In this document: piece by piece, positions 4,608-31,865 of the stretch
How positions within the stretch are numbered: position 1 is the first letter of the stretch
Layout of the letters: each line of letters opens with the position of its first letter
Origin: Trypanosoma brucei
Lineage: Eukaryota
Assembly: GCA_000002445.1 (NCBI GenBank)
Contig: CM000208.1
Location: 1,344,001 to 1,408,000, forward strand
Reading direction: 5' to 3'
DNA length: 64,000 nt
Notes under the pieces: model-generated
Databases searched by the model: none
Seen by the model: only the letters and a program-made list of their open reading frames with translations
What the model was told of the DNA's origin: nothing
Position numbers and translations under genes: made by a program

Positions 4608-4886
4608 GAATGGATTTCCTTCGGTTGAGAAATGAGAACTTTTGGGTTCTTGTGTGACGGTTTGTCCGCAGAGTGACTTGTTAATTTTCATCAATACATA
4701 CACCCCTTAAAGTCTTCCCAGCGTGGAGTAGGCTATGCGCTACGTTACCGTTCTCATTTTGTTTCCTCGAAATATTAAGTCAAATTTATCTAAATTTGTA
4801 TCTTGGTTTAGGGTAGCCGACCACATCTTTGCTATTATCGCTCTATTCCACCTTTTTTTTCTTTTACAACGACAAATAGGCAAACA

Positions 4887-5405
4887 ATGACCACATACGT
4901 CCCAAAGAGCTCGCGCGATGATGTATACCGCTTCTTCTTCACGGAGGGCGTTGTTTCCTGCAAGAAGGACCCCCTCGGCACGTGGAAGGGAACTCTTGGT
5001 GGCAAGACGTTCAAGCTTCCCACTCTACAGGTAATGCAACTGATGCGTTCCCTGAAGAGCCGTGGCCTCATTAAGGAGCAATTCGCCTGGCGCCACTTCT
5101 ACTGGACTCTAAATGATGAAGGCATCAACTACATGCGGAAATACCTCTATCTGGGAGCAGATGCTGTGCCGAACACTCACAAGGTGGATCACAAGACCTT
5201 TGAACGCGAAGGCGGACGCGGGCGTGGGCGCGGTGATGGCCGTGGCCGTGGGCGCGGGTTCGGACGTGGCCGTGGCGAGGGCCGTGGCTTCGGACGTGGA
5301 CGCGGTGAAGGCCGTGGCCGTGGTTTCCATAGTGAGCGCGACCAGTACCGCGCCGGTGCTGCTGCCCAAGGCGAGGATGCCGCGCCCGTTGCTGCGGTTG
5401 AGTAG
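4887..5405 (+). CDS. RPS10: 40S ribosomal protein S10 (eS10), copy 2
   Basis: 172 aa with a coding sequence identical to 3452..3970. The 5' flank differs from copy 1 right up to the ATG, and the 3' flank diverges about 25 nt after the stop codon. Confidence 0.9.
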   Translation: MTTYVPKSSRDDVYRFFFTEGVVSCKKDPLGTWKGTLGGKTFKLPTLQVMQLMRSLKSRGLIKEQFAWRHFYWTLNDEGINYMRKYLYLGADAVPNTHKVDHKTFEREGGRGRGRGDGRGRGRGFGRGRGEGRGFGRGRGEGRGRGFHSERDQYRAGAAAQGEDAAPVAAVE

Positions 5406-13400: not shown

Positions 13401-14549
13401 AGCGACCTCCATGATTATTTGTATGAAAATGGGTGGACACGTATCCAGCGTTTTCTAGGCAACTTGTGGGACACCATTTGTGCACCCTTCACGAAATTGA
13501 AGGAAGAATACCTTGAGGAGCAGTTCGCCGAAGAGGTGATATCTGAAAAGCAGGGAGGCAATGCTTTGACTACCATTGCCGAGAAACTGGCCGAGTCCAT
13601 ATCTGCATCTAATTCCGTTCGGGAGGGGTCGATTGCATTGCAGTTACTCTCTGCAGCATTGCTATCTGGTGAACCTGATGGGTTTTCGATTCTTCTCACC
13701 GAGGAAATGGACCGTAAGAACCAGCATCTAAGTAGTTTCGCTGTCTTTTTGTCTGAACATCTTTGGTGTCGCGGTACGATCACCGGGGTCTGGGTGGAAG
13801 AACATAAGGCCGCGCAGTGGCACGACAAAAAACCAAAAACTAGAGGATATGGGGCTCTGTTTGACGTTAACACGCAAGCCCCTTTTGACTACACGCTTTC
13901 GGAGTCGCGTCTCGAGATGTTTGCATTACTTGCTTTAAAGCGTGCATTGAGCAGACAGGCATCCACTTCCCATGGTGATGTCATATCTTCGTCGGCAAAT
14001 CGGTCCCTCTCGCAGGAAGAAGTAGACAAGTCTGTCGGTGAGTTGGCGTTGTGCGGTGGCGTGTTGATCGGCACCTTTTTGGAGAAACAGCGACCTTTCC
14101 CACCACATAAACCCTATGAGGGGATGCATCTTCCTGTGGGGAATTCCCGTTGCTTGCGCCAACTGCTGAAACATATCGAGATAACTGGAGTTTCACCCTT
14201 TAAAGGTATTAGTGCAGCTGAGGTGGAAATATGGCTGTTGAATACACTAGTTAGTTTCACTGAACTGCAGTCTAAATATTACACAATCTCCCTGTTGGGG
14301 AGGTACCGCGGTCTCTCGTCAAAGAAGGAAGAATGGGAGGGGAGACGGCTCCGCAAGCGGCTTGTGGAACCGTGGCGGAGAGTCAATGGCGAGGAATGGA
14401 CTGAAATGTGGGTTCCCGACGTTGGCGAAGGGGCGGTGTACAACAGACGGTTGCACGACATTTCCGGGACGTACCTTGGCGCCCGTGTGAAGTGGTTCTT
14501 CAAGAATGTTATTTTCTATGGAAGCCACTTGCTTCGCTGGTTTTGGTAA
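10449..14549 (+). CDS. Large hypothetical protein (1366 aa), kinetoplastid-type, no domain recognised by eye
   Basis: Uninterrupted 4.1-kb ORF on the coding strand of the polycistron, with an ATG at 10449. Its complexity is not low. A poly-Y tract lies upstream (10300..10440). Confidence 0.6.
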   Translation: MMQNGFVLILFHLLLSVVPPGRGVEWEGSSDDQKHGSHHQFFNVSENERLLSKLRLPFRLSLTSVKETTDLAREVVFLQRVGGMCPRLDMWERVEVLFGIGTPLEEKYGVERLELVQALLEPAVIRFHEDDLETVSDPLGFIGLMVQGQGTVIWVHFSELVVSHMVGQPPSLNVNVVAVFQRVERWAKKTRLNRHRLQMEAEYARVRSEHLIAIDHDRHKMKEEATERRRRKEFLRDLREFNKQNSQGTVHHNKGLENAGLSDDGAAVREQIGTRCENIRHAIRTVKSQGVPTTETRMQYLLKKEGRVCVTPLEEEDSNLTDADVCDIRCLAYCDGVSALHNWSERSGSSNSVSQLHALYHTVLFNRTNSSMSVSNDYLSYLRQLVMEDVERGVFSTCSDICSPSPSLRKEMNFFAGVLALLDNGGMRNKTAQKVKLARVDSEWWFRARSGYLRIWAAARSGSERALKALATMRENGMLTPQQSRMALIFLHVSLAQDKSSIWNIAAETLTAPRGSSFSIPMGKLLRTERFFGMENSWSAVNEPYMTRSYVGAVGVEADGGNDDEREGALYYAPSQSVQRDIFIAKLYIAGIKGVQRDMQRAECLLLTILRKLEYTCDVEHAASEDEVYFSGGGRGGGCEEHMDQLRVLRYKLPALGRCRFSTTGNNTASASRTEALLRFGGMSWSEESFPLLHDTLLLLSYIHLVDGLKFNLSAKYAFQAIQLGAAAFHTALRSIPEAVVAEFYAYRNNSERLKVLMRGRKPPASSLLMHAMRRGEPRDDLEDFTRSGFLTSEALLLLAVAAPQLGAEGEQLMRVVAESFYGSASCVEHPSRSSCVIQLSFFLLREAARLWKDEEREPSVFDSSYGSPHRADPFLLMALLLQKGKITVEDIRQGSVFNKALYAPSTSHVLRPTAADTRDSYVSKILKLARQTSPYILKPIARENSKNGRRFMDNSTTLREFQATRLAIQRSLHEHDILPLLVVSDLHDYLYENGWTRIQRFLGNLWDTICAPFTKLKEEYLEEQFAEEVISEKQGGNALTTIAEKLAESISASNSVREGSIALQLLSAALLSGEPDGFSILLTEEMDRKNQHLSSFAVFLSEHLWCRGTITGVWVEEHKAAQWHDKKPKTRGYGALFDVNTQAPFDYTLSESRLEMFALLALKRALSRQASTSHGDVISSSANRSLSQEEVDKSVGELALCGGVLIGTFLEKQRPFPPHKPYEGMHLPVGNSRCLRQLLKHIEITGVSPFKGISAAEVEIWLLNTLVSFTELQSKYYTISLLGRYRGLSSKKEEWEGRRLRKRLVEPWRRVNGEEWTEMWVPDVGEGAVYNRRLHDISGTYLGARVKWFFKNVIFYGSHLLRWFW

Positions 14550-15093
14550 GTTTCTAACATTTCTTTTTTCCAAACTTGCTTTATTAAAGATGCTGGGCCT
14601 GGGGATGTGCCGTGTGTTATTTCACGTGATGTCTCAGGGGGTGAGAGCATGGTGCTCTGCAGCAGCTCTTGTCTCCCTCTTTTTTACCCTACCCTCCGTC
14701 TCTTGTTCTGCCTATTTTTTCATTTGGATATATTAGTTTAAGCTACCAGTATTATTCTCCTAATACTTCAATATTATTTACAACAAAACCCCCTTTTGAC
14801 TGCTCGATTGGAGGTGAAGGCCTACCCCTCGAAGGTTTAGGGGGTTTCTAAAGGTTAACTCAAATCGATGTCTTAGTGGACTCGTACACCCTTGGTAGGG
14901 TTTCCACGCACATTCAAAGGTGGTTGCCTACAAACTATTTTATGTTTTATTTGTTTTTTTTTCACTACCGCCGATGTGTGGGAAAGTATCGTTCAGTATT
15001 TTCGTCCTTCTTACTTACCGTCCTTCTCGTATCTCCCCCCTCTCCTTTCCTTTTAACCCTCGCTTGATTAATGTTTGTAAGAAACATAGGAGG

Positions 15094-16818
15094 ATGACAC
15101 CCGGAGCAATGTACTTATCGTCCGTAACGCTAACTCTCTGCATAGTGCTGTTGGCAACAGGGGCACGGCAATCAGCTGCCGCTGCAGCGGCGGTCGGGGA
15201 GACTGTAATATTAGATCAAGGATCCAGCGAGTCCATACGTATTGTGGAAAGTGGTGGTTCAACCACGGACGCTTCTTTTGACTTTGTTGGATTGTGGCCG
15301 CATGGTGAACACCGTGAAAGTGATGCCATGTTCTTTGACGAAGAGGACGCCAAGTATGAGAAATGGATGGTTAAGGAGAGAGAAAAGAAACGGAAGCAGG
15401 AAAAGGAGAAACGAGAGGAAAAGCAGAAGGCAATGAACAAGTCGAAGGATAAGCCCCGAAAGCCACCAAAAGGAGCTTCCACCTTTCAACTCACTCAAGC
15501 TGCTGTGCGAGCCCGGACAACCGAGCGTCGCAGTCGACTGAGAGCACTGAGGAAACCTAACTCTTTATTATTTGATGCTGCATGGAGCGCTGTTCTCGAG
15601 GATTCAGACAATTTACGAAAGTTGCTCTCCGCGGATTCTATTATGCGCTCTCGGGAAGGGGAGGGGAACAACCCTGAATCGCAGTATGTCCAACTCCTCT
15701 CTACGGCATTCAGCCACACGGTGAGAAACTTAACGACCGAGTCGCGCAGTGATTGGATTTCTCCGCTGATATACGCTTTGCCGTTTCCAGTACTTCTGGA
15801 CAACGGGGCATTGGTGTCTGCGGAGCAGGAGGTGCGGGCCCTAATGACGGACTTGCAAGTAATGAAAGCGACACCGGTTCCTCAGCCGTCATCCAATGGC
15901 AGTGAAAAGAAGGTGCCAAGCAGCACAGATGTGGAAGCCACAACGCAGTTGGTTGAAGACAACCTCCGAATTGCTTCCACCACTATATCCGCAAGCAAAA
16001 GCGCTCACCGCGTCGTGGCGCAGCTTGCTCTGCCTATCATGGGGCATGCGAAGAGCAGTGTCTCCGACCAACTCCGTGAAGTTGAGAAGCAAATAAGGGC
16101 AAACGATGAGTCTACAGTCGCTAAGCGCCGGGAGCTGAAGGACTTAGCGAAACTGAAGAAGGTGGTGAAGGCCACCAAGGACCGCATTCACGCCGCTGAC
16201 GGTGAGTTGCGAAACGCCTACTTCTCTACCACGCCGATGCTGTCGAAGAGTTCCTTTCTAATTTCCCTGGCTCTAATTTGCCGGTTACGTCTTTCAAGAA
16301 ACACGTACGTCGATGCTGTCGATATGCTTCCGGGCATAGACGCTTTTGCTGATTTTACTGGGTCGATGAGGGCCGAGCTGTATTCTTTTCTCTTTTATCC
16401 ACTAGGAGTGGGCGTTGCCGTATCAGCGGCTACAACGTGGTGCTTGTTGTCAACACGTCAGCTGATAACGAAGAAACTCAAACGGCAAGCCGGGCGTCTG
16501 CTACAACAAACTTCAACCAGTGGAGGTAGACCCGGTAAAGTTTCAGGTATAACGATGTTTGCACTGCGAGCGAATCTGCTGTTGGAGGCACTGTCCCCTC
16601 TGTTTGTACCACTAGTTACCTTCTATATCATCAACAGAACGTTAACTAAAGATTTGTTGTATCCGATTGTAATCACTGTGAAGCCGGCCCAGAGGCTAGT
16701 TTTGGGTTTCGTGGTGATAAGTGTTCTTGTGGCGAGTGTAATCGTGTCACGTGTGCTCACGGCCGTAGACAGGTGGTCCTTGAACCGACACAATGCCAAT
16801 AAGAGAAAAGTGCAGTAG
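15094..16818 (+). CDS. Hypothetical membrane protein with a predicted signal peptide, a charged coiled-coil middle region and 3-4 C-terminal TM helices
   Basis: The ORF track begins at GTG 14920. The first ATG that gives a plausible signal peptide (MTPGAMYLSSVTLTLCIVLLATGARQSAAAAAAVG) is at 15094. There is a K/E-rich segment (KEREKKRKQEKEKREEKQK). Hydrophobic helices lie near the C-terminus (LYSFLFYPLGVGVAVSAATTWCLL; LLLEALSPLFVPLVTFYIIN; LVLGFVVISVLVASVIVSRVL). Confidence 0.5.
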   Translation: MTPGAMYLSSVTLTLCIVLLATGARQSAAAAAAVGETVILDQGSSESIRIVESGGSTTDASFDFVGLWPHGEHRESDAMFFDEEDAKYEKWMVKEREKKRKQEKEKREEKQKAMNKSKDKPRKPPKGASTFQLTQAAVRARTTERRSRLRALRKPNSLLFDAAWSAVLEDSDNLRKLLSADSIMRSREGEGNNPESQYVQLLSTAFSHTVRNLTTESRSDWISPLIYALPFPVLLDNGALVSAEQEVRALMTDLQVMKATPVPQPSSNGSEKKVPSSTDVEATTQLVEDNLRIASTTISASKSAHRVVAQLALPIMGHAKSSVSDQLREVEKQIRANDESTVAKRRELKDLAKLKKVVKATKDRIHAADGELRNAYFSTTPMLSKSSFLISLALICRLRLSRNTYVDAVDMLPGIDAFADFTGSMRAELYSFLFYPLGVGVAVSAATTWCLLSTRQLITKKLKRQAGRLLQQTSTSGGRPGKVSGITMFALRANLLLEALSPLFVPLVTFYIINRTLTKDLLYPIVITVKPAQRLVLGFVVISVLVASVIVSRVLTAVDRWSLNRHNANKRKVQ

Positions 16819-17680
16819 ATTTACACGGGGTGATTTAAAGGGGGATTTACTTGTGATGTGTACTTTGCGTGACTGAGAAGCGACTTGAATTCCTGTCACT
16901 GTATTCATTAAGTATTAATTTTTCTTTTTGATCTATTGGCGTTTGCACTGCCGCCCCTGTCGTCTCCGTCCAATTGACATTTCCCCAAAGGGCGTGTGAA
17001 ACGCGGGTCGGAAGCGGAGGGTTCCCCTAATATCGCTTTACTTTTTTTTTGTTTAATGGATCTATGTGTGCTAGGGGAGAGACATCCAATAAGCAGAGTG
17101 GGGAAAGGGGGGGTTAACCCTCTCCTTGGGGAGGTATAATGGAGTTGTTTATCACGTTCTCTTTGTACGTGGCTTGGGATTCTTATGGTGCGACGGTTTA
17201 CATTCGACAACTTACCATTGCTATTTTCACGTCCCCCTTCCTTTCTTTTTCTCGTTTCCCGCAAGAATTGTAAAAATTTCCTCACGCATGAGATTGCCAA
17301 ATGTAAGTTATTGCGAATGTGCTCCCCACAACGGGCCCCTTCGGGGTGCACAAGCAGAATGTTTTGCACTATCAAATAGCTTTGCGGTAGAGAACCTAAG
17401 CAACCTCTTCAGGAAAGGGTTTCATTTGGTGATAATTTGGCTTGGATGTCCCCGCGTCTCTCAATTTTTTTTTGTTGTTCTATCTTACTGTTTTTCCTTT
17501 TCTTTTCTTTCTTTGTTTCGTTTTACCGACACTAAAGGCGTCACTCTCCCTGCTTATTAGGAGAAATAGGGAGAGGGCGGAGGAGAATACTTCTTCGTTT
17601 TCGCTGGCGTGAGGCTAACCGACTTGTTTTGTCCCCTCGTTTGGCCGAAGGATAGGTTACCTGTAGTTTGGTGCGACTTT

Positions 17681-20600
17681 ATGCGTGTGACATGTGTAGT
17701 TGCTTGCGGCTTACGCTCTAGTAGTTCCGACCTGAAGCGGCGGCGAATACGTCAGTTGGAGCGGCAATATGGTCCCGCGTGGCGCTACACTGCAGGGTGG
17801 ACATCGCAACTGTCGCCAGTGGGTATGTTTGACGCATTGGAAGTTCCGGTTTTTCCACCAAACGTGGTGCAAACGCGTGAATTAGATCACGTGGGATGCG
17901 CTAGTGCACCGCGCACTACCGTGGTGTCAAGGGGCCTCGTACAAAACGGAAACCCTAGAGTAAAAGATTCACAACCAACTTCAGTTTTAGACGAAAATAA
18001 CGCTTACTTCAATCCACAACATGATGCAGGTACAAGTTCGAGCGATGACCCCTTGTTCGAGTTTTTAAGGCATGATGATGAACACAGTGCCCTTCTGCTA
18101 GCCATGTGGACTTCCCTTTATCGGTGCTGCGTTCACGCATCCGAGTTGTCCGAGTTTCTTGCATTTCGTGTGCGGTGGTTTCTGCATCATCTCATTCATA
18201 TGCGTGCAACAGCAGCCGCGGTCCGATTTTATCATCGTTTACTGTTGTTGGGCGTACATCTTCAAAAGAAGGATGTGTCGTTGTTGCTTAGCAGTTTACC
18301 CTATGAGCATTACGTAGTGAATGTGGACTTTAAAGGTGAAAGCAAGAAGAAATGTAGCCGTTTTCGTACGATGCGACAGGCTGATACCACTCATGTAGAC
18401 AAAAAGAGTGCTACAAATGGTGATAAGGGAGGTACTGTTGTTTTTAGCGGTGATGGAGGAACTGTTGGTGAGGAGGAGCGTCTTCTGTTCGCTTCAACGA
18501 TAACGTCCACCGGAGCGGACACTTCTTGCGATACTAGTGCTAGAGTGTGCCCGGCAGGAGACACATGCGGGGTGGAGTCGGTTGATTTTGAGTTGACACC
18601 AGCGGGTAGCCGATACTTGCGAGACCAACCAGAATGGGTTAAGCGCTGGGTTCTTTATGAGGCATCCATGGGTAATATTGATCTCTACGATGAGGAGAAC
18701 GCCACCACCCTGCGCGCCGACAAATATGTTGATTCATCTTCCGTGGGATTAGATTGTGGTGATGAATGCACACCATCTGAGGTGAAATGGGCCGAAGGGT
18801 GTATCGATGTGGTTACCCTTCTTAATCATTTGATGCTTCTGCATGATGGAAATCATTTAATCCACAGAGAAACTAGAAAACGTCGAGTGAATGGTAAGGG
18901 AAGATCTGGCATAACTCTAAGAGGAGAAATGCAGCGACACTATTGGGCAGAGGCCCTCCAGATTGCAGGTGCATTCCTCAGTGCGCGCAGCTCAAGGGGA
19001 CGGGAGAGAAAAGCGGAAGAGGGACAATATGAAGTGGGTTGCAGCGTACCGCCTGAGTTCCGCAGTGAGTTGTGTCGTGCGTTAGTTGCCGCTGGCAGTT
19101 GGAAGGTGGCACTCCGATGGCTCAAAGTTGCTGAGCAGTACAGAGTGGGTTTCACGCATAGTGAGTACGCGAGGATTTTCCTTTGTCTTGCTGAGTCAGA
19201 GCCTTGGGAAACATCTCGTGCTGCGGAACGTTTTGTTGCTCGTAATATGATTCCTCTCTTGCCAGAAGAAACCGTATGTGGTTACGCGTCCCGCGCCATG
19301 TGGTTGGCACATGTTTGTTCCCAAAGGGATAATAGGGTGGAAGAATGTTTGGAATTGATGGAATCTACCTCCGGAAATCTCCCTGCGTGCGTAAAACAAA
19401 GTATAGTGTACATCAAGCTCGCTGCGTCATTACTTCGCGTTGATGCTGACAGGTTTTTTGCCGCTGCTGCGCTCCAACAGTTTGAAGCGGCTTCAATTCG
19501 CTTAGGTGTGTTTCATCCCGCGGCCGATCTATCGCAGCGGCATTCCCCTCCCATACAGTTGGTGACTAGGGATATGGCGAGCGCCGGGAGCGGCGCTCTT
19601 CTTACTGTTCAACTGCAGGATTCCTTTGTCTTAGTGTCCATAGCCCTTCCACGCGTTGTAGAACTTGTATCGGTCGCCGCTGCTTCGCAGGAGGATGAAG
19701 TGCAGCTGGCCACCCTTCTGGCTGACGTGCTGTACGGTCCCAATGGTTTGTGGAAGTTTTTTTCTGATGTATGCCTTGTGGGAGAAAGCAAGCAGTTAAC
19801 AAGTCACCGGACTTCAGAAGTCGTGCGAATTTCTTTGTACATGTCACTGTGTCTACTAAAAATTGGTGTTGCGCTTTGCCGGGTGGTTGGGCACGAGAGG
19901 CAAGGCGTTCAAGGAAATCCTCATTTGAGGGAAAAACATTTGACGCTTATATTGGGATTGCTTGAGGAGAGTCTTGGCGCCATTCCGGCGCGAAACGCTG
20001 TGGAGATCAAAGATCGACGGATCATGTTATCACTGGTAGCCACATCGGCCAAGCTAACTAAACATGTTTTTCGACAAATCGGTGTTTATCCCTGCAATGA
20101 GAAAGTTATTTTCGGCTCATTCAGCGAGGAAACTTCTGAAACTGTTGCTTTGATGCTCCGTATTCACGTGCTACTGTGGCGGCGCGTTAGTTCACTCCGT
20201 AGGCATCTTCAGCTTGCCGCAGGGTCGGCGTTGCGTGCTGTGTTCCGACCAACTAGTGAGTTGGGTAAGCACGTACGTGGGCATATACCCCGGCATCAAC
20301 AGCAGGAACTAGACTCGATGCTTGCTTATGGGCGACTACGGAAGTACGGAGAGCGTAGGGCGGGTGCAGCGATCGCGACAAAATCAAAATCGGAGGCGCG
20401 TGTGCATTCACCCGAGGATGTTGCGCGAATCAAGGCGGTCGCGAAAACGCACAGAGTTGTTTATGCATTGTCTCTTCAGCACGTAAACAACGGTGCGGCG
20501 CTCGAGCGTGACTTAATAACTTATCTCAGTAGGGCAAGTTGGGACGGTGCTCTTACGATGCTGCACGTTTCTCTTCACCACTTACGCCTTCCGCATGGTA

Positions 20601-21766
20601 CATTTGGTCTCCCCTTCTTTGCGGGTGTGTTGGCTCGTTTGTGTAAAGCACCCCACAGAACGAAGTCGCTCTGGTTTCAAGCAATTGGGGTGTACTGGGA
20701 CGCCGTGGAGCACGTCCCTCGCCCACACGTATCCGCCAATACAAGTCATGTTGTGGATAGTAAGAGCCAACTCCGCTTACACGAGAGGAATGTTCTAACA
20801 CAACTGCTACTGCCATTACTGCGCTTTAGCGTGTCGACAAGGCAAAAGGAAATGGGATGGTCGTGGATGAGGCGTTGGGACTTGATGCACAAATCAGATG
20901 AACGTGATGTGGAGTATGAAGCACTGAGCGTGTGGGCACGATCGGTGCTTGAGGACCGCTCGGCACTCAAGAGGTGTCAACGGCTGATGGAAAAATATCA
21001 ATATCAACACATGAGGCAAAAAAACCTACCGATGATACCACCGCTGGAAAATATTCTGTGCGACGTTGCAGTCAATCATGCTGATTGGTGTGCTGCTCTC
21101 CACGCACTGGAGACGGTGTTTTGGACACCACAGCGTGGAGGTGACTTCATCACGACACCACTCCCGCCGCGAGCGGCAACTGCGGTGCTTCGTATACTTT
21201 GCAAGGCACCCACGAACTTGTGCAATACGGCTCGCCGTCTCCGAGAGATTCAGGGAAGCTGCTGGGATTTACGTAGCGCCAACAGTCTGCTTCTATTGTT
21301 GGTAAGGCAGAGGCGTTGGCAGCTTGCATTGCAACACGTTGCTGAAATGCTTCCAGTTGTGCAGAACGGCCGCCAAAAGTCTGATGTGGTGGGTGGGAAT
21401 AGCGTCTTCGATATGTGCTTGGAGGGTGATGGCAAGACAGAGCAGGCTTTATTCCTAGTTCATGGGTTGCGGGCGTGCGCAAATGGAGGTCGTGCGGAGG
21501 AGGCAGCGACGTTGTATGACCTTGTTAAACAATTGGCTGGCTTGGAAGCGGTGGTTCGTGCTGCGGACATAAACGTTGAGAGTAGTGTAACCTATGCTCT
21601 AAAGCGGCCGGAAGACATGTTGTTTTTCATGTGCAACCAAACTGATCAACCACAAGATACACTGGCATGTGACGAAGATGAGCGAATGCGCATGCTAGTT
21701 GGACAAGCGCGTGTTTACTTTCTCCGAGCGATGACTAAGAAAACTCTGCGTTGCAACAGGCGATAA
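17681..21766 (+). CDS. Large hypothetical protein (about 1361 aa) with an arginine-rich N-terminus (possible mitochondrial presequence)
   Basis: The ORF track starts at GTG 17609, and the first in-frame ATG is 17681 (MRVTCVVACGLRSSSSDLKRRRIRQ). It is a long unbroken ORF on the coding strand. Confidence 0.55.
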   Translation: MRVTCVVACGLRSSSSDLKRRRIRQLERQYGPAWRYTAGWTSQLSPVGMFDALEVPVFPPNVVQTRELDHVGCASAPRTTVVSRGLVQNGNPRVKDSQPTSVLDENNAYFNPQHDAGTSSSDDPLFEFLRHDDEHSALLLAMWTSLYRCCVHASELSEFLAFRVRWFLHHLIHMRATAAAVRFYHRLLLLGVHLQKKDVSLLLSSLPYEHYVVNVDFKGESKKKCSRFRTMRQADTTHVDKKSATNGDKGGTVVFSGDGGTVGEEERLLFASTITSTGADTSCDTSARVCPAGDTCGVESVDFELTPAGSRYLRDQPEWVKRWVLYEASMGNIDLYDEENATTLRADKYVDSSSVGLDCGDECTPSEVKWAEGCIDVVTLLNHLMLLHDGNHLIHRETRKRRVNGKGRSGITLRGEMQRHYWAEALQIAGAFLSARSSRGRERKAEEGQYEVGCSVPPEFRSELCRALVAAGSWKVALRWLKVAEQYRVGFTHSEYARIFLCLAESEPWETSRAAERFVARNMIPLLPEETVCGYASRAMWLAHVCSQRDNRVEECLELMESTSGNLPACVKQSIVYIKLAASLLRVDADRFFAAAALQQFEAASIRLGVFHPAADLSQRHSPPIQLVTRDMASAGSGALLTVQLQDSFVLVSIALPRVVELVSVAAASQEDEVQLATLLADVLYGPNGLWKFFSDVCLVGESKQLTSHRTSEVVRISLYMSLCLLKIGVALCRVVGHERQGVQGNPHLREKHLTLILGLLEESLGAIPARNAVEIKDRRIMLSLVATSAKLTKHVFRQIGVYPCNEKVIFGSFSEETSETVALMLRIHVLLWRRVSSLRRHLQLAAGSALRAVFRPTSELGKHVRGHIPRHQQQELDSMLAYGRLRKYGERRAGAAIATKSKSEARVHSPEDVARIKAVAKTHRVVYALSLQHVNNGAALERDLITYLSRASWDGALTMLHVSLHHLRLPHGTFGLPFFAGVLARLCKAPHRTKSLWFQAIGVYWDAVEHVPRPHVSANTSHVVDSKSQLRLHERNVLTQLLLPLLRFSVSTRQKEMGWSWMRRWDLMHKSDERDVEYEALSVWARSVLEDRSALKRCQRLMEKYQYQHMRQKNLPMIPPLENILCDVAVNHADWCAALHALETVFWTPQRGGDFITTPLPPRAATAVLRILCKAPTNLCNTARRLREIQGSCWDLRSANSLLLLLVRQRRWQLALQHVAEMLPVVQNGRQKSDVVGGNSVFDMCLEGDGKTEQALFLVHGLRACANGGRAEEAATLYDLVKQLAGLEAVVRAADINVESSVTYALKRPEDMLFFMCNQTDQPQDTLACDEDERMRMLVGQARVYFLRAMTKKTLRCNRR

Positions 21767-22568: not shown

Positions 22569-23414
22569 ATGGCACAGTCTTTGGTGTGGCGGTACTTGGG
22601 ACCGGAGGACACGCATCGGTGTCTCGATGCGCCTGATGTGCCTTCTGTTCGGAACCTGTTGGTTGAAATTGACGACGGAATGGATGGAAAGCTTATCAAC
22701 TGTCGCAACTACAATAAGGGGCAGCTGATGATTGTGCTAGACATGCTTGCGCATCTAATTGTGTTCACTAAAACATGTTCCATGTCGCTAGAGAAGGTTA
22801 GTACAATTGTGGGTATTATGCTGGAGTTGCACCGAGAGAGCATGTCGAATCAGTATACACGATCCCAATCGTATCACCGACTGCGTGAGCTGATGCTACT
22901 CCACAGTGTTCCCCGCCCACCGTTCTCATGTGGCATCTTTAGTGTGGCGGATGTACAGCATATAGACGAATATCTCTTATTGTCTTATTTCCGCCATTAC
23001 AAAATGTATGTGTACGCTTTCGTGCCTCAGCGTTTAGCGAATATTCACAGCGTTTCCGTCGGGCACAACCACTGTGTACCTCCTTTAGGACTCCCCGCCC
23101 TTACGACAGCGACGCCACGGGCAGAATGGATAGCGAAAGTGGAAGACACACACCGACAGATGGAGGAACGGCAGATGGAAGTGGAGGATGTGCGGTCTGC
23201 TGAATACGAGGAAGAATGGTTGAAACACCGCTACCTTAACGGCACGCACTACAGCGAGGGGTTGAGGGAACAGCTGCAGAGTATAAAGAGGGATGTTTCT
23301 GATAAAGCACTCAACCAACTGGATTTGATTGAGGCGCGTCTGGTGGAAATAGAGAAGAAGGTGGAGATAGTGCAGCAGCGACAGGATGGGAAGGGTGGTA
23401 AGCGAAAAAAATAG
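22569..23414 (+). CDS. Hypothetical protein, 281 aa, with a C-terminal coiled-coil / charged tail
   Basis: ATG at 22569. The C-terminus (EDTHRQMEERQMEVEDVRSAEYEEEWLKHRYL..LIEARLVEIEKKVEIVQQRQDGKGGKRKK) has heptad-like charge periodicity. Confidence 0.5.
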   Translation: MAQSLVWRYLGPEDTHRCLDAPDVPSVRNLLVEIDDGMDGKLINCRNYNKGQLMIVLDMLAHLIVFTKTCSMSLEKVSTIVGIMLELHRESMSNQYTRSQSYHRLRELMLLHSVPRPPFSCGIFSVADVQHIDEYLLLSYFRHYKMYVYAFVPQRLANIHSVSVGHNHCVPPLGLPALTTATPRAEWIAKVEDTHRQMEERQMEVEDVRSAEYEEEWLKHRYLNGTHYSEGLREQLQSIKRDVSDKALNQLDLIEARLVEIEKKVEIVQQRQDGKGGKRKK

Positions 23415-23838: not shown

Positions 23839-25455
23839 ATGGAGCGCGGAGGGCGCTGCCTCTTCAGGAGGTGGAGTACCCGCGCATTGCCCTCCGTGTC
23901 TCACACACTACGATGTCGTGGAACAATTTCTAACTCAGGTGGGGAGGGAAATGATGCAATCGCTGAACCTCGTCGCGTGCGTCTGGTGCCGTCTGCACCT
24001 CATGGGAACAATTCTTCGGAGCTATTTTCTGTCGGTGTGGATCCCAGAAGTCATACATGTGATCCCGATGATCCATATTCCCACATCCAAATATACAGAA
24101 AGGACATGGTAGCGGACGCCGGTGGTCGAGCGTTTCAACTAAGTGTTGATGTTCCGTTGAAAAAATTTGTGGACCTCTTCAGTGATTTCGATGGAAAACG
24201 TTGTAAGCTCTGCAACGAAAGCTACATGCAGTGGCATAGTCATAGCAGTGTTATTCCCCACTCAGGGAGGGAGGCACTTATGCTTGAGATGGTCCGTGCA
24301 TACTGCGGCCTACCGGAGGATATTGCAAAAATGTGGTGGCATCGACTCAATACGTCGCCCGCGTTCAATCGCATCCCGAAACTGAGTCATGACAATAGTC
24401 ACACCAGAAAGCGCAGGTTACAGTACCTTCTGAAATTTCTGAAAGATAGGGACGTGATCCGCGACACATTCAACGTTCACAACAGCTCTGGAACTGCTGG
24501 TCGTTCGTGGGAATTCGAACGTCTCGAATGGATTGGGGATAATGTTGTGAAGTATGTGTTTAACGATCGGTTTAATGTCATATTTCCTGTGCGTGAGGGC
24601 GGTATTCGGGGCCGATTGGGGTACGCGCAATTTATGATAGATGGCAATGATGGCTTGGCACGCGCCTATGACTACTTGGAGCTTCAGAAGCTGACTCTAA
24701 GTGACCGGGTTGTGAGCAAATTCAAGAGCGATGTGGTGGAGACATTGTTTGGTGAACTTCAGCTTTATATTTGGTCTTCAGAGACGGACGCCGGCACTAC
24801 CTGTTACCCACTTCCATTTACTGGCGAGATGTTTTCCCTTCGTGCTCTCGTGTGGCACGTGATGGAGGAGTTGGCACATGTAATGTTTATGTATCACGTG
24901 GAACACGCGCTTGCGGCTATTCAGCGTGTTGTAAGGGAAAATCAACTGCAATTTATCCGTGCAGATCCTGCACTGCGCGGTCATGCGGACCTGCAGAGTG
25001 AGTTGGCAAACACGGTTTACGCTAAAAAAGCTGCGTCTGGGCCAAGCAAACTCACGTCGACAAAAGTGTCTCCTGGTGCCCGTTTCAGGGACGGTGGTGC
25101 CTCGTTTTACCACGAAGCATCGAACTATGATGGTTTCAAACGTGTGTGCACTCTTGGGGGTCTCCTGCCCCGACCATTTTCACCCCGTGAGTTGACGTCC
25201 ACAACGTCTTTTCTTCCTCATTTGCAGGAAGACAGTGCGATGACACGCCGAGTGCCTGTGGACTGGACACGTAAACTTTTTGACGATTGCACTGGCAACG
25301 CCACGAAGAAGCCCGGAGCCCCCAACTTTTTACCATGGCAGGCCGTCACGCTACAGCCCCGTTCCCGTTGTTCTGCAGAGGAGGCTGGACGGTCAACTTC
25401 ACGCCTGGGTATTCCTGAATTGAAGGACGCACTACTAGTGGCCGAATTAGTTTAG
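23839..25455 (+). CDS. KREN-type mitochondrial RNA-editing endonuclease (U1-like C2H2 zinc finger plus RNase III domain); by synteny with the NLP gene probably KREN2/KREPB2, with KREN3/KREPB3 as the alternative
   Basis: The N-terminus is Arg-rich (MERGGRCLFRRWSTRALPSVSHTLRCRG), consistent with mitochondrial import. A U1-like zinc finger is present (CKLCNESYMQWHSHSSVIPH, about 24203..24262). The RNase III signature is present (ERLEWIGDNVVKYVFNDRF, about 24517..24573; compare the canonical ERLEFLGDA). ZnF plus RNase III is the editosome endonuclease architecture. Confidence 0.7.
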   Translation: MERGGRCLFRRWSTRALPSVSHTLRCRGTISNSGGEGNDAIAEPRRVRLVPSAPHGNNSSELFSVGVDPRSHTCDPDDPYSHIQIYRKDMVADAGGRAFQLSVDVPLKKFVDLFSDFDGKRCKLCNESYMQWHSHSSVIPHSGREALMLEMVRAYCGLPEDIAKMWWHRLNTSPAFNRIPKLSHDNSHTRKRRLQYLLKFLKDRDVIRDTFNVHNSSGTAGRSWEFERLEWIGDNVVKYVFNDRFNVIFPVREGGIRGRLGYAQFMIDGNDGLARAYDYLELQKLTLSDRVVSKFKSDVVETLFGELQLYIWSSETDAGTTCYPLPFTGEMFSLRALVWHVMEELAHVMFMYHVEHALAAIQRVVRENQLQFIRADPALRGHADLQSELANTVYAKKAASGPSKLTSTKVSPGARFRDGGASFYHEASNYDGFKRVCTLGGLLPRPFSPRELTSTTSFLPHLQEDSAMTRRVPVDWTRKLFDDCTGNATKKPGAPNFLPWQAVTLQPRSRCSAEEAGRSTSRLGIPELKDALLVAELV

Positions 25456-25957: not shown

Positions 25958-28831
25958 ATGTCACAGAAAGAGGAGAATAGCGTCAACGGCGATGAGACCA
26001 ATACAACCCTGCCGCGTGCGGTGTTAAAGACGCGTACAGCGTCTCAGCTCTACAAAGAAGGGGGGAGCGTAGGCACCATGGCGTCGTTTAACTCATTGCC
26101 GCAGGTTGAACAGCTGTTATTCAAGGTACAGGCAGCAGAAATGACCCTTCTCGCAGCACTTGATGTTGCTGAACGAAGTCCTGAAGATAAGAAAATATTT
26201 GGCCATGCCACACTTACCATGGCAGAGAACTACCTCTCGGAAATTATTTCCATCATTCCACACTGCAGTCGCTCGACTGACGCACCCCACCTTTCTATCA
26301 ACAGTTCCGCGATTCAGCGGCTCATTGCGTTGTATGGGGCGTCCGATGATGTCGTTAAGTTTGTCGCGCACCTTTCCACATCGCAGCCGAGAGTAGCTGA
26401 ATTATCTCCTCGTGACGTAACAACTGTAGTATACAACATTAGTGAGGTCGCTCGGCTGTTCAAGCAGTCTATGAAAGAGAGTGGAGAGCAGTGCGGTGTT
26501 TTCACCAAATCAACAACAAGCTTACAGCCTTCACCGATGAAGGAAAGTGAATCAGCCGTAGCTGATGAAGGGACTGTTCCTCCCGCACCAACGGCTGGCC
26601 GGAAACGAGGCCGACCTTCGCGGAATAAGTCTTCGGATACACCAGCGGAGCCTGGAGCTGAAGGTTCTCCTGAACACGGGACTTTCACGGGGGAGGGTGG
26701 CGCGGCGGCAAAGGATAAGAGGAAAAAATCTGAGGAGACTTCTTCTCGGAAACCGAAAAGTAACGAAGGAACACCGAGCGGTCCAAGAAAAATAAGTTAT
26801 TGTCGCCTACGTGCGCTGACAACCGCGGAAAAGAGAGTCACCACCAGTCTCAACCAGATAGTCCAGCTTCTGGGACATTTATATGCTCACCAATACAACG
26901 ATTTGTTGCCAGTGTTTGGATTTCTTGAGGCACGGGTGAAACAACTGCAAGAAACCATTGATGTGGAGCGTGCTGCCTTTGCAAAGAAAGATATCGCAAC
27001 GAGATCCCCAGAGCCTTTCATTGGGGTTTCAGTGCAGTCCATCATAGCTGCAATCCGATCTTCTCTTCACACTTACTCAACGGAGGAATGGTGTCGGCAA
27101 GAATTCGATGAGGACCTGCTTCACCCCGTAGCTCATGCGTGCATGACAGAGGTAAACCGCATTGAGGGTTTCGCAACCGAGCCTTTTGTAGGAATTACTG
27201 CTGAAGCACTAGCTGCAAAAATCGCCACTCGGAAGGCTGCACGCATCAAACTGGAGGAAAAGTGGGAGAAAGAGCGGGAACGTGCGAGGGAGAAGGAGGA
27301 GGCACAGGTTAAATACAACGAAGAACGACGTTGGCTGCGAGCGCGGTTTGGTGATATAGACAAGGCGAGCCTTGTAGAAGACACTTCTATAGATAATCCT
27401 GCTGTGTCTGCTCCTGTGTACTACAGCGATCTCCCGTTGCAAGATGTGGAATTGTATGAGCGGGCACTTTTTGTTTGGACGATGCTTGTGTCCGTTCCTC
27501 AAGCTTTGCGTCTTTCACAGATGCCCTTCAATATATTTCTGAAATCTGTTACCACGGGAGTTGGTGGAACTGATACACTGATTGAGGAAATTGTGAAGTC
27601 TTTGTTAGAGGTGCTAGTGGAAAACCTCCGTGCGGGCAACGGCTCACGAATCAACATCAAGGGAAAGTATTGGTTTGACGCCATGGTGGAGTTCGTTGCA
27701 GTGACAAGTGGAAACCGGAGGAAGCGGGATAACAAGCAGAAAAAGGACATCAAGGAGGAAGAAGAAGAGGAGGAGGAGGAAGAAGAGGAAGGGGAAGAAA
27801 CGGAGGATGAGACAGTTGAGGAACAGGAGGAGGATGAAGAAGAGGCGCAGGAAAAAATAGAGGGCAGTACTGACACAGAAAAAACCGGTAACGACCGAGA
27901 ACCCCAGAACTCTGAGGACTTGAAGCAAGATGTGGAAGAGGAAAAAAGTAAGGAAGAGAATGAAGGCGAAAATCTCGCCAACATGATCAGGGGGACCATG
28001 GAAAACGTGGCTGAGCTCCGCAACATGGCGACGTGGTTTAACATAAACTTACCTGATCGTCTCAACCTCCTGTATTACTTGGTGTTAGAAGCGCTGCATA
28101 CTCCCGTGGTGCAGGGCGAAGCCGAAAAGATGCGGAAAAGGTACGAGGAGCAACAGTTGCTCGTCGGAAAGTGCATCAAGGAAGTTTGTGAGGAGGCATG
28201 TAAAGAGTTCAAGGGCCTTGCCAGGAAACTAGCGGTGTCGAAATCTGAAGACGAGGAGCAGTCTGTCGAAGAGAAACGGAAAGAAATTCTGCAGGAGTGC
28301 AGTAACCGCCTCAAAAGTACTGTCGAGGAACAAATAGGGGTACAAGACGGTAAGGATGTTGGTACTATAATCCGTCCCATAGGCATGGACCGCTACAAGA
28401 GAGTGTACTGGCGTTTGCCATTTGATCGCCACATTACGGTTCAAAGTACACAGGCCACAAACTTGGATTTCCCAGCTCTGCGTGGTGTTACGTATTTGGC
28501 GGAGCGCACCTCCCACAGTTTCGCTGGAAACTTGCTTGATGACGATGATTGTGAAACAGGCGTGCAGGTGGGGAGCACCGAAAGCGCTAGTGCCCAGGGC
28601 AGTGCCAATGATCAGATACCTCAGAAGGTTTGGGGAACTGTGCCACTAACCTGCCTGGGTACTTTTATAGAAGGTTTGGATAGGCGTGGCGTTCGTGAAG
28701 GGGAGCTCAGGCGGAACCTGGAGATTTTGCAGCCGTACCTAGCAAGCATGAGCGAAATAACTGGGGGACGCATCACAAGATTCAGGTCTCAGACCTTCGG
28801 TTATCAGAACAAGCTAAGGCTCGAGTTGTGA
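25958..28831 (+). CDS. NLP: Chromatin protein with an AT-hook, a DDT-like domain, a poly-acidic tract and a WHIM/WSD motif. It is consistent with the T. brucei nucleoplasmin-like protein NLP, an ISWI-complex partner.
   Basis: AT-hook GRKRGRPSR (about 26596..26625). DDT-like helix LFVWTMLVSVPQALRLSQMPFNIFLKSV (about 27467..27550). E/D-rich run EEEEEEEEEEEEGEETEDETVEEQEEDEEE (27754..27855). WHIM-like GMDRYKRVYWRLPFDRHI (28381..28440). At 957 aa (about 106 kDa) it fits the reported size of NLP. I assigned it from memory. Confidence 0.65.
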   Translation: MSQKEENSVNGDETNTTLPRAVLKTRTASQLYKEGGSVGTMASFNSLPQVEQLLFKVQAAEMTLLAALDVAERSPEDKKIFGHATLTMAENYLSEIISIIPHCSRSTDAPHLSINSSAIQRLIALYGASDDVVKFVAHLSTSQPRVAELSPRDVTTVVYNISEVARLFKQSMKESGEQCGVFTKSTTSLQPSPMKESESAVADEGTVPPAPTAGRKRGRPSRNKSSDTPAEPGAEGSPEHGTFTGEGGAAAKDKRKKSEETSSRKPKSNEGTPSGPRKISYCRLRALTTAEKRVTTSLNQIVQLLGHLYAHQYNDLLPVFGFLEARVKQLQETIDVERAAFAKKDIATRSPEPFIGVSVQSIIAAIRSSLHTYSTEEWCRQEFDEDLLHPVAHACMTEVNRIEGFATEPFVGITAEALAAKIATRKAARIKLEEKWEKERERAREKEEAQVKYNEERRWLRARFGDIDKASLVEDTSIDNPAVSAPVYYSDLPLQDVELYERALFVWTMLVSVPQALRLSQMPFNIFLKSVTTGVGGTDTLIEEIVKSLLEVLVENLRAGNGSRINIKGKYWFDAMVEFVAVTSGNRRKRDNKQKKDIKEEEEEEEEEEEEGEETEDETVEEQEEDEEEAQEKIEGSTDTEKTGNDREPQNSEDLKQDVEEEKSKEENEGENLANMIRGTMENVAELRNMATWFNINLPDRLNLLYYLVLEALHTPVVQGEAEKMRKRYEEQQLLVGKCIKEVCEEACKEFKGLARKLAVSKSEDEEQSVEEKRKEILQECSNRLKSTVEEQIGVQDGKDVGTIIRPIGMDRYKRVYWRLPFDRHITVQSTQATNLDFPALRGVTYLAERTSHSFAGNLLDDDDCETGVQVGSTESASAQGSANDQIPQKVWGTVPLTCLGTFIEGLDRRGVREGELRRNLEILQPYLASMSEITGGRITRFRSQTFGYQNKLRLEL
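27754..27855 (+). repeat. GAG/GAA (poly-Glu) coding microsatellite inside the NLP-like gene
   Basis: gaggaagaagaagaggaggaggaggaagaagaggaagg... Confidence 0.8.
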
Positions 28832-30428: not shown

Positions 30429-31865
30429 ATGATATCTTACAAGCGGCGAAACATGTTCCTTGCAGATGGTAGACGAGTTTTGGTTGGAAACTTTATTATG
30501 TCCATTTCCACTATAATAGTTACCTTTTATCTCACGCAGGGGCACTTACAGGTGGGTCAGTGGCGCCTCCTGGATGACATCTCTCCGCGGTTGTCAGAGG
30601 CTGCGCGGAAGATTGGAATGCTTGAGGTTGAGTTGCCATATCCTTTCAACCACGTTAGCGCCGTTGTCGCCAGTCCAACAGGTATAGCAGACGCTGGTCA
30701 TAAGGTTATGCGTTTTTTTGGTACAAATTTGCGTTCCAACATCATAACGGAAAAAGTGAATGGGGAAGCAGCAAACTTGCTTGCTACTGGTTTTAGCAGT
30801 GAAAGTACAATATTGGCTCACCTGCTGTCGCCTAAGGCTGATGGACCCCTCGGAATAATGGGAATACTTCATCTGTGCTCGGCCACCAGCTGCATGGCCC
30901 CTTATTTCACACAACAATATGCAACTGTAACGGTACGGCCTTCAGGAAATTATCGCCTATTCGTAGGTGCACTTGTTTACGGAGACGTCTTCTTGGGTTC
31001 GGTCGTTGAGAATGACCTTGCCGCTCTTGATGTTGTGCTGCCTCGTGCCTCCAGGGGGAGGGAAGCAACAGGAGCTATGCCACTCCACGGCGTTGTTGGC
31101 GGGAGCTATGCGGGGAAGAGCGTGACTGTTAAGTGTTCGGTCTCAATCAATAGTTGTCAGTATGAGTTTCGAGACGATGACACTGACGCATCACATCCTT
31201 CAGTCACCGTCGTTCACCTGGATGACGTAAAGTTGGGCGAGGCCGAGCTCCCTGTGATGGGGTTTCGTGTGGTTCACATTGATCTTAATTCTGAAGAACA
31301 ACTTGCGATCGTGACTTATCTCACGGGTTTGTTGCACGTGTCCGCGAGGCCTGAGCATATCATTGTTACGCTCTACCCCTCACCCTTTCTCGAAGAGACT
31401 ATAACGGCTGTGGACGTTTTGAGAGTAAGTGTGCCTTACAATGTTTTTATCGAGGGCGGCAGGTGCAGGTTAACGACAAATTCATCAACTGTGCCCTCCG
31501 CTGAAGTTCTGCGCCTCGTTTTGCGTCGGGCAGGTACCTCAGCGTCATCTGCCCTCAACACTCGGAGCTACGCGGCCGAACCATTATGTGTCCTAGTACT
31601 GTCAAAGTCAATCACGTCGTTGTCACAACTGTTGGAGCATGTTGCACCGACCAAGCAGGAAGACGTTATGAAAACATTCCTGGGTACAAGCTTGGATCAG
31701 GGCAGTCACAGAGGAGTACCATGCAGAGGGAAACACAGCAAACCAAATGCTTTCAAATGGATCTTGCTAATAACAGTGCCGCTGCTGGTTGCTGGACTGC
31801 TCGCTTGCGGCATGCTTTATGGGAGAAGGCGTGTGCCGTTGTTGTGGGAGGACAAAAGACCATAA
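30429..31865 (+). CDS. Hypothetical type-I-like membrane protein (N-terminal signal-anchor, about 400-aa lumenal/extracellular domain, one C-terminal TM, short basic tail)
   Basis: N-terminal hydrophobic segment FIMSISTIIVTFYLTQ. C-terminal TM WILLITVPLLVAGLLACGMLYG followed by RRRVPLLWEDKRP. It lies between the two RPL24 copies. Confidence 0.5.
   Translation: MISYKRRNMFLADGRRVLVGNFIMSISTIIVTFYLTQGHLQVGQWRLLDDISPRLSEAARKIGMLEVELPYPFNHVSAVVASPTGIADAGHKVMRFFGTNLRSNIITEKVNGEAANLLATGFSSESTILAHLLSPKADGPLGIMGILHLCSATSCMAPYFTQQYATVTVRPSGNYRLFVGALVYGDVFLGSVVENDLAALDVVLPRASRGREATGAMPLHGVVGGSYAGKSVTVKCSVSINSCQYEFRDDDTDASHPSVTVVHLDDVKLGEAELPVMGFRVVHIDLNSEEQLAIVTYLTGLLHVSARPEHIIVTLYPSPFLEETITAVDVLRVSVPYNVFIEGGRCRLTTNSSTVPSAEVLRLVLRRAGTSASSALNTRSYAAEPLCVLVLSKSITSLSQLLEHVAPTKQEDVMKTFLGTSLDQGSHRGVPCRGKHSKPNAFKWILLITVPLLVAGLLACGMLYGRRRVPLLWEDKRP

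What the first reader, a model, noticed from the sequence alone, without database searches (positions are those of the whole stretch)
23839..25455. Editosome-type endonuclease (U1-like zinc finger plus RNase III) encoded immediately upstream of a chromatin factor
The combination of an Arg-rich presequence, a C2H2 U1-like zinc finger (CKLCNESYMQWHSHSSVIPH) and the RNase III catalytic signature ERLEWIGDNVV is diagnostic of kinetoplastid RNA-editing endonucleases (KREN1-3). It could alternatively be a catalytically inactive paralogue (KREPB4/5-type). The catalytic acidic residues (E..D in ERLEWIGD plus the distal D/E) can be checked directly. The C-terminal half (about 200 aa) shows no clear dsRBM by eye, so this should be verified.
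Basis: partly seen in the sequence, partly recalled or inferred. Interest (0 to 1): 0.5.

Follow-up and report, generated by a model that had tools for sequence, protein, structure and literature searches.

The report
Known trypanosome RNA-editing endonuclease KREN2

Summary
The ORF at 23839..25455 (+) is real and encodes 538 aa. It is 100% identical to T. b. brucei TREU927 XP_822788.1 / Q38B60, "RNA editing complex protein MP61", and about 99% identical to solved chain 9z0h_C. Residues G95, A375 and terminal V538 match the numbering published for T. brucei KREN2 (Tb927.10.5440). KREN3 is 596 aa, so this is KREN2 specifically.

The zinc ligands C122, C125, H135 and H141 are invariant in 38 orthologues. 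So are the catalytic residues E227, E230, D234, D298 and E301. It is therefore the catalytic type, not a KREPB4/5-type pseudoenzyme.

An AlphaFold2 model gives a confident core at aa ~100-380: zinc finger, helical linker, RNase III domain and a long RAM helix. The C-terminal 160 aa are low-confidence, contain no beta strand and give no dsRBM or PUF hit, so I found no dsRBM.

The neighbouring DDT/WSD gene is probably an incidental neighbour in what looks like a polycistronic unit.

Verdict: interpretation supported, already known, low interest.

The parts
23839..25455 (+). KREN2 (TbMP61, Tb927.10.5440) coding sequence, 538 aa plus stop codon
   Evidence: The ORF is listed. It is 100% identical to XP_822788.1/Q38B60 and about 99% identical to PDB 9z0h_C. 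G95, A375 and V538 match the published KREN2 numbering.
23839..23973 (+). N-terminal Arg-rich, poorly conserved, disordered segment (aa 1-45), the presumed mitochondrial presequence
   Evidence: It has 8 Arg and 0 Lys, pLDDT below 50 and 0.11-0.22 identity across orthologues. The targeting role is inferred and no cleavage site was determined.
24139..24450 (+). Zinc-finger module and helical linker (aa 101-204)
   Evidence: pLDDT is mostly 92-97, with one 10-residue block at 78. The model has a strand at 128-131 and helices at 138-151, 159-172 and 187-203. Conservation is 0.6-0.7. No Pfam zinc-finger model detects it at E<=10.
24202..24261 (+). C2H2 U1-like/matrin-type zinc finger, C122-x2-C125-x9-H135-x5-H141
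   Evidence: The motif is located. C122, C125, H135 and H141 are invariant in 38 orthologues.
24502..24822 (+). RNase III catalytic domain (aa ~222-328)
   Evidence: Pfam PF00636 matches aa 227-305 at 16.8-20.2 bits, below the curated 27. A profile search hits Dicer-like 3, Drosha and bacterial RNase III. Foldseek hits RNase III nuclease domains.
24517..24549 (+). RNase III signature ERLEWIGDNVV carrying catalytic E227, E230 and D234
   Evidence: These residues are invariant and align to E. coli RNase III E38, E41 and D45.
24724..24756 (+). Distal catalytic motif KSDVVETLFGE carrying D298 and E301
   Evidence: Both residues are invariant and lie inside the Pfam RNase III match. Correspondence to E. 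coli D114/E117 rests on motif similarity only, so it is inferred.
24823..24942 (+). Long RNase III-associated motif (RAM) helix, aa 329-368, formerly annotated as PUF-like
   Evidence: The model gives a single helix at 329-368 with pLDDT 92-98. The RAM concept comes from PMC9508840.
24961..25452 (+). C-terminal tail (aa 375-538), predicted mostly disordered, with no dsRBM
   Evidence: pLDDT is 38-65 and there are no beta strands. There is no dsrm or PUF hit at E<=10 and no PDB match other than itself. The same region was trimmed as low-confidence in the published T. cruzi model.
25099..25233 (+). Conserved island in the tail (aa 421-465, ...FKRVCTLGGLLPRPF...)
   Evidence: V436, G440, G441, L442, P444, F447 and L452 are at least 90% conserved. 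Identity rises to 0.49-0.55 against 0.1-0.28 in the flanks. Its role is unknown.
25399..25452 (+). Conserved C-terminal end (aa 521-538, ...IPELKDALLVAELV)
   Evidence: Identity is 0.49, occupancy 0.99, and L533 is nearly invariant. Short helices are modelled at 525-530 and 535-537.

Best explanation
The ORF is the nuclear gene for KREN2 (TbMP61, formerly KREPB3; Tb927.10.5440) of Trypanosoma brucei. KREN2 is the catalytic RNase III subunit of the U-insertion RNA editing catalytic complex RECC2. According to the literature, the protein is imported into the mitochondrion. Its single RNase III domain pairs with the catalytically dead RNase III domain of KREPB7, which leaves only one active site. 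The zinc fingers of the two partners are modelled to hold the mRNA/guide-RNA duplex. The one active site (E227, E230, D234, D298, E301 with Mg2+) nicks only the mRNA strand at insertion editing sites. Uridines are then added by KRET2 and the mRNA is religated. Shown here: the identity of the gene, the domain anatomy, and conservation of the catalytic and zinc-binding residues. Taken from the literature: the partner, the complex and the substrate specificity.
For: The protein is an exact match to XP_822788.1/Q38B60 'RNA editing complex protein MP61' of T. b. brucei TREU927 and to a T. equiperdum 'RNA editing endoribonuclease'. PDB 9z0h_C 'MP61' matches at E=0 with 5 substitutions. KREN2 = Tb927.10.5440 in two papers. 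The published T. brucei KREN2 numbering M1-G95 and A375-V538* fits this protein residue for residue, whereas KREN3 is 596 aa ending in G. All 48 homologues recovered are MP61 orthologues or unnamed kinetoplastid proteins. The next PDB relatives are MP90/KREN1 (1.5e-19) and MP46/KREPB4 (2e-5), followed by Dicer-like 3, Drosha and bacterial RNase III. C122, C125, H135, H141, E227, E230, D234, D298 and E301 are invariant in 38 orthologues. E227/E230/D234 align to E. coli E38/E41/D45. The AF2 core at aa ~100-380 is confident and includes the RAM helix 329-368. The top Foldseek hits are three chains of the solved RECC1 editosome 9dei. The N2/B7 heterodimer, insertion-site cleavage and specificities distinct from KREN3 are reported in PMC9508840, PMC5416837, PMC6800513 and PMC12936278.
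Against: The nomenclature table of the 2026 review PMC12936278 labels KREN2 as TbMP67 and KREN3 as TbMP61, which conflicts with the PDB and NCBI naming of this sequence. The same table still gives KREN2 = Tb927.10.5440, and the length and residue numbering in PMC9508840 settle the matter, so I read this as a label swap. The Pfam RNase III model scores below its curated cut-off (16.8 against 27 bits) and no Pfam zinc-finger model hits, so family membership rests on motifs, conservation, fold and identity rather than on curated HMM thresholds. No biochemical property could be tested here.
Confidence: 0.97

Rival explanations
1. It is KREN3 (the COII-preferring insertion endonuclease) or KREN1 (the deletion endonuclease) rather than KREN2.
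For: The review table in PMC12936278 attaches the alias TbMP61 to KREN3.
Against: PMC9508840 gives T. brucei KREN3 as 596 aa ending in G and KREN1 as 818 aa ending in A. It gives KREN2 as 538 aa with G95, A375 and V538, exactly as here. MP90/KREN1 in PDB matches only at E=7e-10 over the core. The T. cruzi KREN2 model is 532 aa ending in V, like orthologue P0005.
Confidence: 0.015
2. It is a catalytically inactive RNase III pseudoenzyme of the KREPB4/B5 (or B6-B10) type with a structural role only.
For: It shares the zinc finger, RNase III and RAM architecture with those paralogues. MP46/KREPB4 is a detectable relative.
Against: All five catalytic acidic residues are present and invariant across 38 orthologues and align to the bacterial catalytic residues. 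The literature states that only N1-N3 retain them. The MP46 match is weak (E=0.005) and does not cover the distal D/E motif.
Confidence: 0.005
3. It is a non-editosome RNase III protein: Dicer-like DCL1/2, the guide-RNA processing nuclease mRPN1, or the mitoribosomal protein mL44.
For: There is generic RNase III similarity to Dicer-like 3, Drosha and bacterial RNase III. A human mitoribosomal large-subunit assembly-intermediate chain appears only at Foldseek rank 22 with E=1.1.
Against: The best and only strong relatives are the editosome proteins. The exact sequence is deposited as an RNA editing complex protein and is solved within an editing complex entry that also holds MP46.
Confidence: 0.005

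Closest known systems
T. brucei KREN2 / TbMP61 / KREPB3 (Tb927.10.5440; UniProt Q38B60; PDB 9z0h chain C)
   Same: The amino-acid sequence is identical to the TREU927 entry. Length, G95, A375 and V538 all match.
   Different: Nothing differs from the TREU927 entry. The PDB/gambiense-type sequence differs at five positions: A40P, T219A, P495A, L498V and L505P. Four of these lie in low-confidence regions of the model and T219A lies in the loop just before the RNase III domain.
KREN1 (TbMP90; PDB 9dei chain C), the deletion-site endonuclease of RECC1
   Same: It has the same zinc finger, linker, RNase III and RAM core. The alignment covers aa 113-357 of the query and includes ERLE-IGDN and K-DVVE. 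It is the top Foldseek hit.
   Different: It is only distantly related (E=7e-10), has 818 aa with a different C-terminal extension, and has a different partner (KREPB8, plus KREX1) and substrate (deletion sites) according to the literature.
KREPB4 (TbMP46) and the other non-catalytic editosome RNase III paralogues (KREPB5-B10)
   Same: They share the U1-like zinc finger and the RNase III-like/RAM architecture. MP46 sits in the same PDB entry 9z0h.
   Different: According to the literature those proteins lack the catalytic acidic residues. This protein keeps all of them.
Class 1 bacterial RNase III (E. coli Rnc, A. aeolicus RNase III)
   Same: The signature motif and catalytic residues are the same: E227/E230/D234 correspond to E38/E41/D45. 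The nuclease-domain fold matches 1jfz, 3n3w and 3o2r.
   Different: The bacterial enzymes are homodimers with two active sites and a C-terminal dsRBD, and they cut both strands. KREN2 has an N-terminal zinc finger, no detectable dsRBD and an extended RAM helix. According to the literature it pairs with a dead partner and so nicks one strand.

Membership tests
Kinetoplastid RNA-editing endonuclease KREN2 (TbMP61) | Sequence identity or orthology to the characterised T. brucei KREN2 protein | tested here: met
   The protein is 100% identical to XP_822788.1/Q38B60 and matches 9z0h_C at E=0. G95, A375 and V538 with a length of 538 match the PMC9508840 supplement.
Kinetoplastid RNA-editing endonuclease KREN2 (TbMP61) | U1-like/matrin-type C2H2 zinc finger N-terminal to the nuclease domain | tested here: met
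   The pattern C122-x2-C125-x9-H135-x5-H141 has all four ligands invariant in 38 orthologues. The region is modelled at pLDDT of about 78-94.
Kinetoplastid RNA-editing endonuclease KREN2 (TbMP61) | RNase III domain retaining the catalytic acidic residues | tested here: met
   E227, E230, D234, D298 and E301 are invariant. The signature motif aligns to E. coli E38/E41/D45. The fold matches RNase III nuclease domains. The Pfam score is sub-threshold at 16.8-20.2 against 27 bits.
Kinetoplastid RNA-editing endonuclease KREN2 (TbMP61) | RNase III-associated motif (RAM) helix C-terminal to the nuclease domain | tested here: met
   The model has a single long helix at aa 329-368 with pLDDT 92-98. The definition is from PMC9508840.
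Kinetoplastid RNA-editing endonuclease KREN2 (TbMP61) | Heterodimer with KREPB7 and exclusive presence in RECC2 | not testable with these tools
   This rests on the literature only. PDB 9z0h holds MP61 together with MP46, but the other chains were not examined.
Kinetoplastid RNA-editing endonuclease KREN2 (TbMP61) | Cleavage of mRNA at U-insertion editing sites | not testable with these tools
   This is a biochemical and genetic property reported in PMC5416837.
Kinetoplastid RNA-editing endonuclease KREN2 (TbMP61) | C-terminal dsRBM (attributed to KREN1-3 in older domain schemes, from my own recollection; not in the current PMC9508840 table) | tested here: not met
   There is no dsrm hit at E<=10 on aa 375-538, no beta strands and low pLDDT, and no PDB sequence match other than itself. 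The current domain table lists only ZnF, RNase III and PUF (now RAM). I do not treat this as a defining feature.
Kinetoplastid RNA-editing endonuclease KREN2 (TbMP61) | Mitochondrial targeting | tested here: inconclusive
   The N-terminus is Arg-rich and poor in acidic residues, and it is disordered and poorly conserved. No targeting predictor was available.
Non-catalytic editosome RNase III paralogues (KREPB4/B5 type) | Loss of the RNase III catalytic acidic residues | tested here: not met
   All five residues are present and invariant.
Non-editosome RNase III proteins (Dicer-like, mRPN1, mL44) | Best sequence or fold relatives are those proteins | tested here: not met
   The best relatives are MP61, MP90 and MP46. 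Dicer-like 3 and Drosha match only the signature motif, at E of 1e-5 to 1e-3.

The most novel reading that the evidence does not exclude
The two conserved islands in the otherwise disordered C-terminal tail (aa 421-465, 'FKRVxxLGGLLPRPF', and aa 521-538, 'IPELKDxLLVxEL') could be short linear docking motifs. They might tether KREN2 to the common RECC core or to the substrate-binding complex, taking the place of the dsRBD found in classical RNase III enzymes. This may already be answered by the deposited 9z0h structure, which I could not inspect.
Probability: 0.35. Interest if true: 0.2.

Novelty: already known. Interest (0 to 1): 0.05.

Why it matters
KREN2 carries out the first catalytic step of uridine-insertion RNA editing. 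According to the literature this process is confined to kinetoplastid mitochondria and is essential to the parasite. The gene, its protein, its knockouts, its partner protein and a solved structure already exist, so this window adds no new biology. There are two practical lessons. Curated Pfam thresholds miss this genuine RNase III (16.8 against 27 bits), so motif-level reading outperformed automated annotation in this case. Also, the older dsRBM and PUF labels for this protein should not be propagated.

Tried and rejected
- **Paralogue in the window.** KREN3 is Tb927.10.5320, only about 12 genes away, so I searched for a second editosome RNase III gene. tblastn of the protein against the window found only itself, and Pfam scans of the other 20 large ORFs showed no RNase III.
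- **dsRBM or PUF domain in aa 375-538.** Pfam at E<=10 gave nothing relevant. A PDB sequence search found only the protein itself. The AF2 model has no beta sheet there.
- **Pfam zinc-finger models on aa 101-204.** There was no meaningful hit.
- **Original KREN2/KREN3 papers.** PMC1283813 and PMC2223309 are not held. Literature searches for the MP61/KREPB3/KREN2 equivalence returned only the review with the apparently swapped labels. I resolved the naming through the residue numbering in the PMC9508840 supplement instead.
- **Paper behind PDB 9dei/9z0h.** I did not find one. PMC13631411 does not mention the endonucleases.
- **Structured RNAs.** Rfam and tRNA scans of the whole window found nothing.
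- **Functional link to the downstream DDT/WSD gene.** I rejected this. All large ORFs lie on the + strand and have unrelated functions, as expected of a trypanosomatid polycistronic unit.

Full report
**Observation**

Both quoted motifs are present. CKLCNESYMQWHSHSSVIPH is at aa 122-141 (nt 24202-24261) and ERLEWIGDNVV is at aa 227-237 (nt 24517-24549). The distal acidic motif KSDVVETLFGE is at aa 296-306. The first 45 residues contain 8 Arg and no Lys. The downstream ORF (25958..28831) matches the Pfam WSD motif above its curated threshold and matches DDT weakly, so "chromatin factor" is a fair label. The upstream ORF (22569..23414) is a CLAMP / flagellar C1a-32 protein.

**Identity**

The translated protein is already in the public collections as an exact sequence. 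It is XP_822788.1 / EAN77960.1 / UniProt Q38B60, "RNA editing complex protein MP61" of T. brucei brucei TREU927. It is also a T. equiperdum "RNA editing endoribonuclease".

It matches the solved chain 9z0h_C ("RNA editing complex protein MP61") at E=0. There are five substitutions relative to that gambiense/PDB-type sequence: A40P, T219A, P495A, L498V and L505P. A T. equiperdum contig shows the same gene order around it.

All named homologues recovered from other trypanosomatids are MP61 orthologues: T. congolense, T. cruzi, Leishmania, Leptomonas, Angomonas and a Trypanoplasma transcript.

**Which endonuclease**

The 2026 review PMC12936278 lists KREN2 = Tb927.10.5440 but attaches the alias TbMP67 to it and TbMP61 to KREN3. 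That conflicts with the PDB and NCBI names for this sequence. From my own knowledge KREN2 is TbMP61 (formerly KREPB3), but the original papers are not held in the library.

The supplement of Carnes et al. 2022 (PMC9508840) resolves it:
- It confirms KREN2 = Tb927.10.5440.
- It states that the trimmed regions of the KREN2 model correspond to T. brucei M1-G95 and A375-V538*, where * marks the C-terminus. KREN3 runs to G596 and KREN1 to A818.
- The window protein has G at 95, A at 375, and V538 as its last residue.
- T. cruzi KREN2 is given as 532 aa ending in V, like orthologue P0005.

The ORF is therefore KREN2, and the review's MP labels appear to be swapped. No paralogue lies in the window. 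Aldolase about 15 ORFs downstream fits chromosome 10 near Tb927.10.5620, although that gene ID is from my memory.

**Anatomy**

An alignment of 38 orthologues (A1) shows these invariant residues:
- the four zinc ligands C122, C125, H135 and H141;
- the RNase III acidic residues E227, E230, D234, D298 and E301;
- E253.

A profile built from A1 aligns ERLEWIGD onto E. coli RNase III E38-R-L-E41-F-L-G-D45. The correspondence of D298/E301 to E. coli D114/E117 rests on motif similarity and on the Pfam match spanning aa 227-305, so it is inferred.

Conservation is high from about aa 100 to 380, low in the N-terminal 80 residues, and patchy in the tail. The tail has two conserved islands, at aa 421-465 and aa 521-538.

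The AlphaFold2 model has mean pLDDT 70.5 and 202 residues at 90 or above. Its features are:
- a confident core at aa ~100-380;
- a small beta element and helix at the zinc finger;
- a helical linker;
- the all-helical RNase III domain;
[quoted passage not shown] 2022 proposed in place of the earlier "PUF" annotation.

**The dsRBM question**

I find no dsRBM:
- Residues 375-538 give no dsrm or PUF hit in Pfam even at E<=10.
- They give no PDB sequence match other than the protein itself.
- They are modelled at pLDDT 38-65 without a single beta strand. A dsRBM is an alpha-beta-beta-beta-alpha fold (established knowledge).
- The published T. cruzi model was trimmed over the same region for low confidence.
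- The current domain table lists only ZnF, RNase III and PUF (now RAM) for KREN2.

**Relatives**

By profile search against PDB the order of relatives is:
- MP61 itself;
- MP90/KREN1 (1.5e-19);
- MP46/KREPB4 (2e-5);
- Dicer-like 3, Drosha and bacterial RNase III, through the signature motif only.

By fold, the three best hits are chains C, A and D of 9dei, the solved T. brucei RECC1 U-deletion complex. These are followed by RNase III nuclease domains from Entamoeba, Campylobacter, Aquifex and yeast.

**Mechanism**

This part comes from the literature and was not tested here. KREN2 is the single catalytic RNase III subunit of RECC2. It heterodimerises through its RNase III domain with the non-catalytic KREPB7. 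The dimer therefore has one active site and nicks only the mRNA strand of the mRNA/guide-RNA duplex. The zinc fingers of both partners are modelled on either side of the RNA at the active site, and the RAM helices flank the dimer. KREN2 and KREN3 complexes both cleave insertion sites but prefer different sites, and KREN1 cleaves deletion sites. My analysis shows that the sequence features this mechanism requires are present and conserved: an intact active site, the zinc ligands and the RAM helix.

**Context**

Almost all ORFs of 200 aa or more in the window lie on the + strand; the three exceptions are on the - strand and two of them overlap larger + strand ORFs. GC skew is positive almost throughout. 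The functions are unrelated: dynein heavy chain, ribosomal protein S10, IFT122, CLAMP, KREN2, a DDT/WSD protein, a HORMA protein, a phosphatase, Memo, an ALG9-like mannosyltransferase, PP2C and aldolase. This is the pattern of a trypanosomatid polycistronic unit, where adjacency carries no functional implication (established knowledge). The neighbouring chromatin-factor gene is therefore probably incidental.

**Verdict**

The gene is already known in detail, including knockouts, mutagenesis of its partner, cross-linking data and a deposited structure. The only loose end is the role of the conserved islands in the disordered C-terminal tail, which the 9z0h coordinates may already explain. Interest is low.

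Noticed in passing
window 23839-25455 (literature point): The nomenclature table of review PMC12936278 pairs KREN2 with TbMP67 and KREN3 with TbMP61. The PDB and NCBI names, together with the lengths and residue numbers in PMC9508840, show the reverse, so the review's aliases appear to be swapped.
   Followed up: yes
window 3311-5405: There is a small tandem array of ribosomal protein S10 (Plectin/S10 domain) genes. Two copies share an identical 300-nt core at 3452-3751 and 4887-5186, each with an RG-rich C-terminal repeat (tandem repeats at 3788-3888 and 5223-5323). Between them sits a diverged third copy (4188-4607, about 62% nucleotide identity) that still has an open frame.
   Followed up: partly
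window 24517-24756: Pfam's Ribonuclease_3 model scores this genuine RNase III below its curated cut-off (16.8-20.2 against 27 bits). Precomputed Pfam is blank for 46 of its 48 homologues. Automated annotation would therefore miss the domain.
   Followed up: yes
window 23956, 24493, 25321, 25330, 25351 (codons 40, 219, 495, 498, 505): Five amino-acid differences separate the window (TREU927-type) protein from the gambiense/PDB-type sequence. Four fall in low-confidence, poorly conserved regions and one (T219A) falls in the loop just before the RNase III domain.
   Followed up: partly
window 25958-28831: The downstream 957-aa protein has WSD and weak DDT motifs plus a long acidic, Glu-rich tract in its middle (roughly aa 580-660). 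The rest has no Pfam match.
   Followed up: no
window 10449-14549, 14920-16818, 17609-21766, 30429-31865, 35188-36228: Five large + strand ORFs (346 to 1385 aa) have no Pfam match at E<=0.001. The three upstream of KREN2 are also called as genes in the T. equiperdum contig.
   Followed up: no
window 1-64000: Nearly all ORFs of 200 aa or more are on the + strand and GC skew is positive almost throughout. No tRNA or Rfam family was detected. This is consistent with the interior of one polycistronic transcription unit.
   Followed up: partly
window 55985-57790: A 601-aa ORF matches Pfam DUF5393, a family of unknown function (E=1.8e-14).
   Followed up: no
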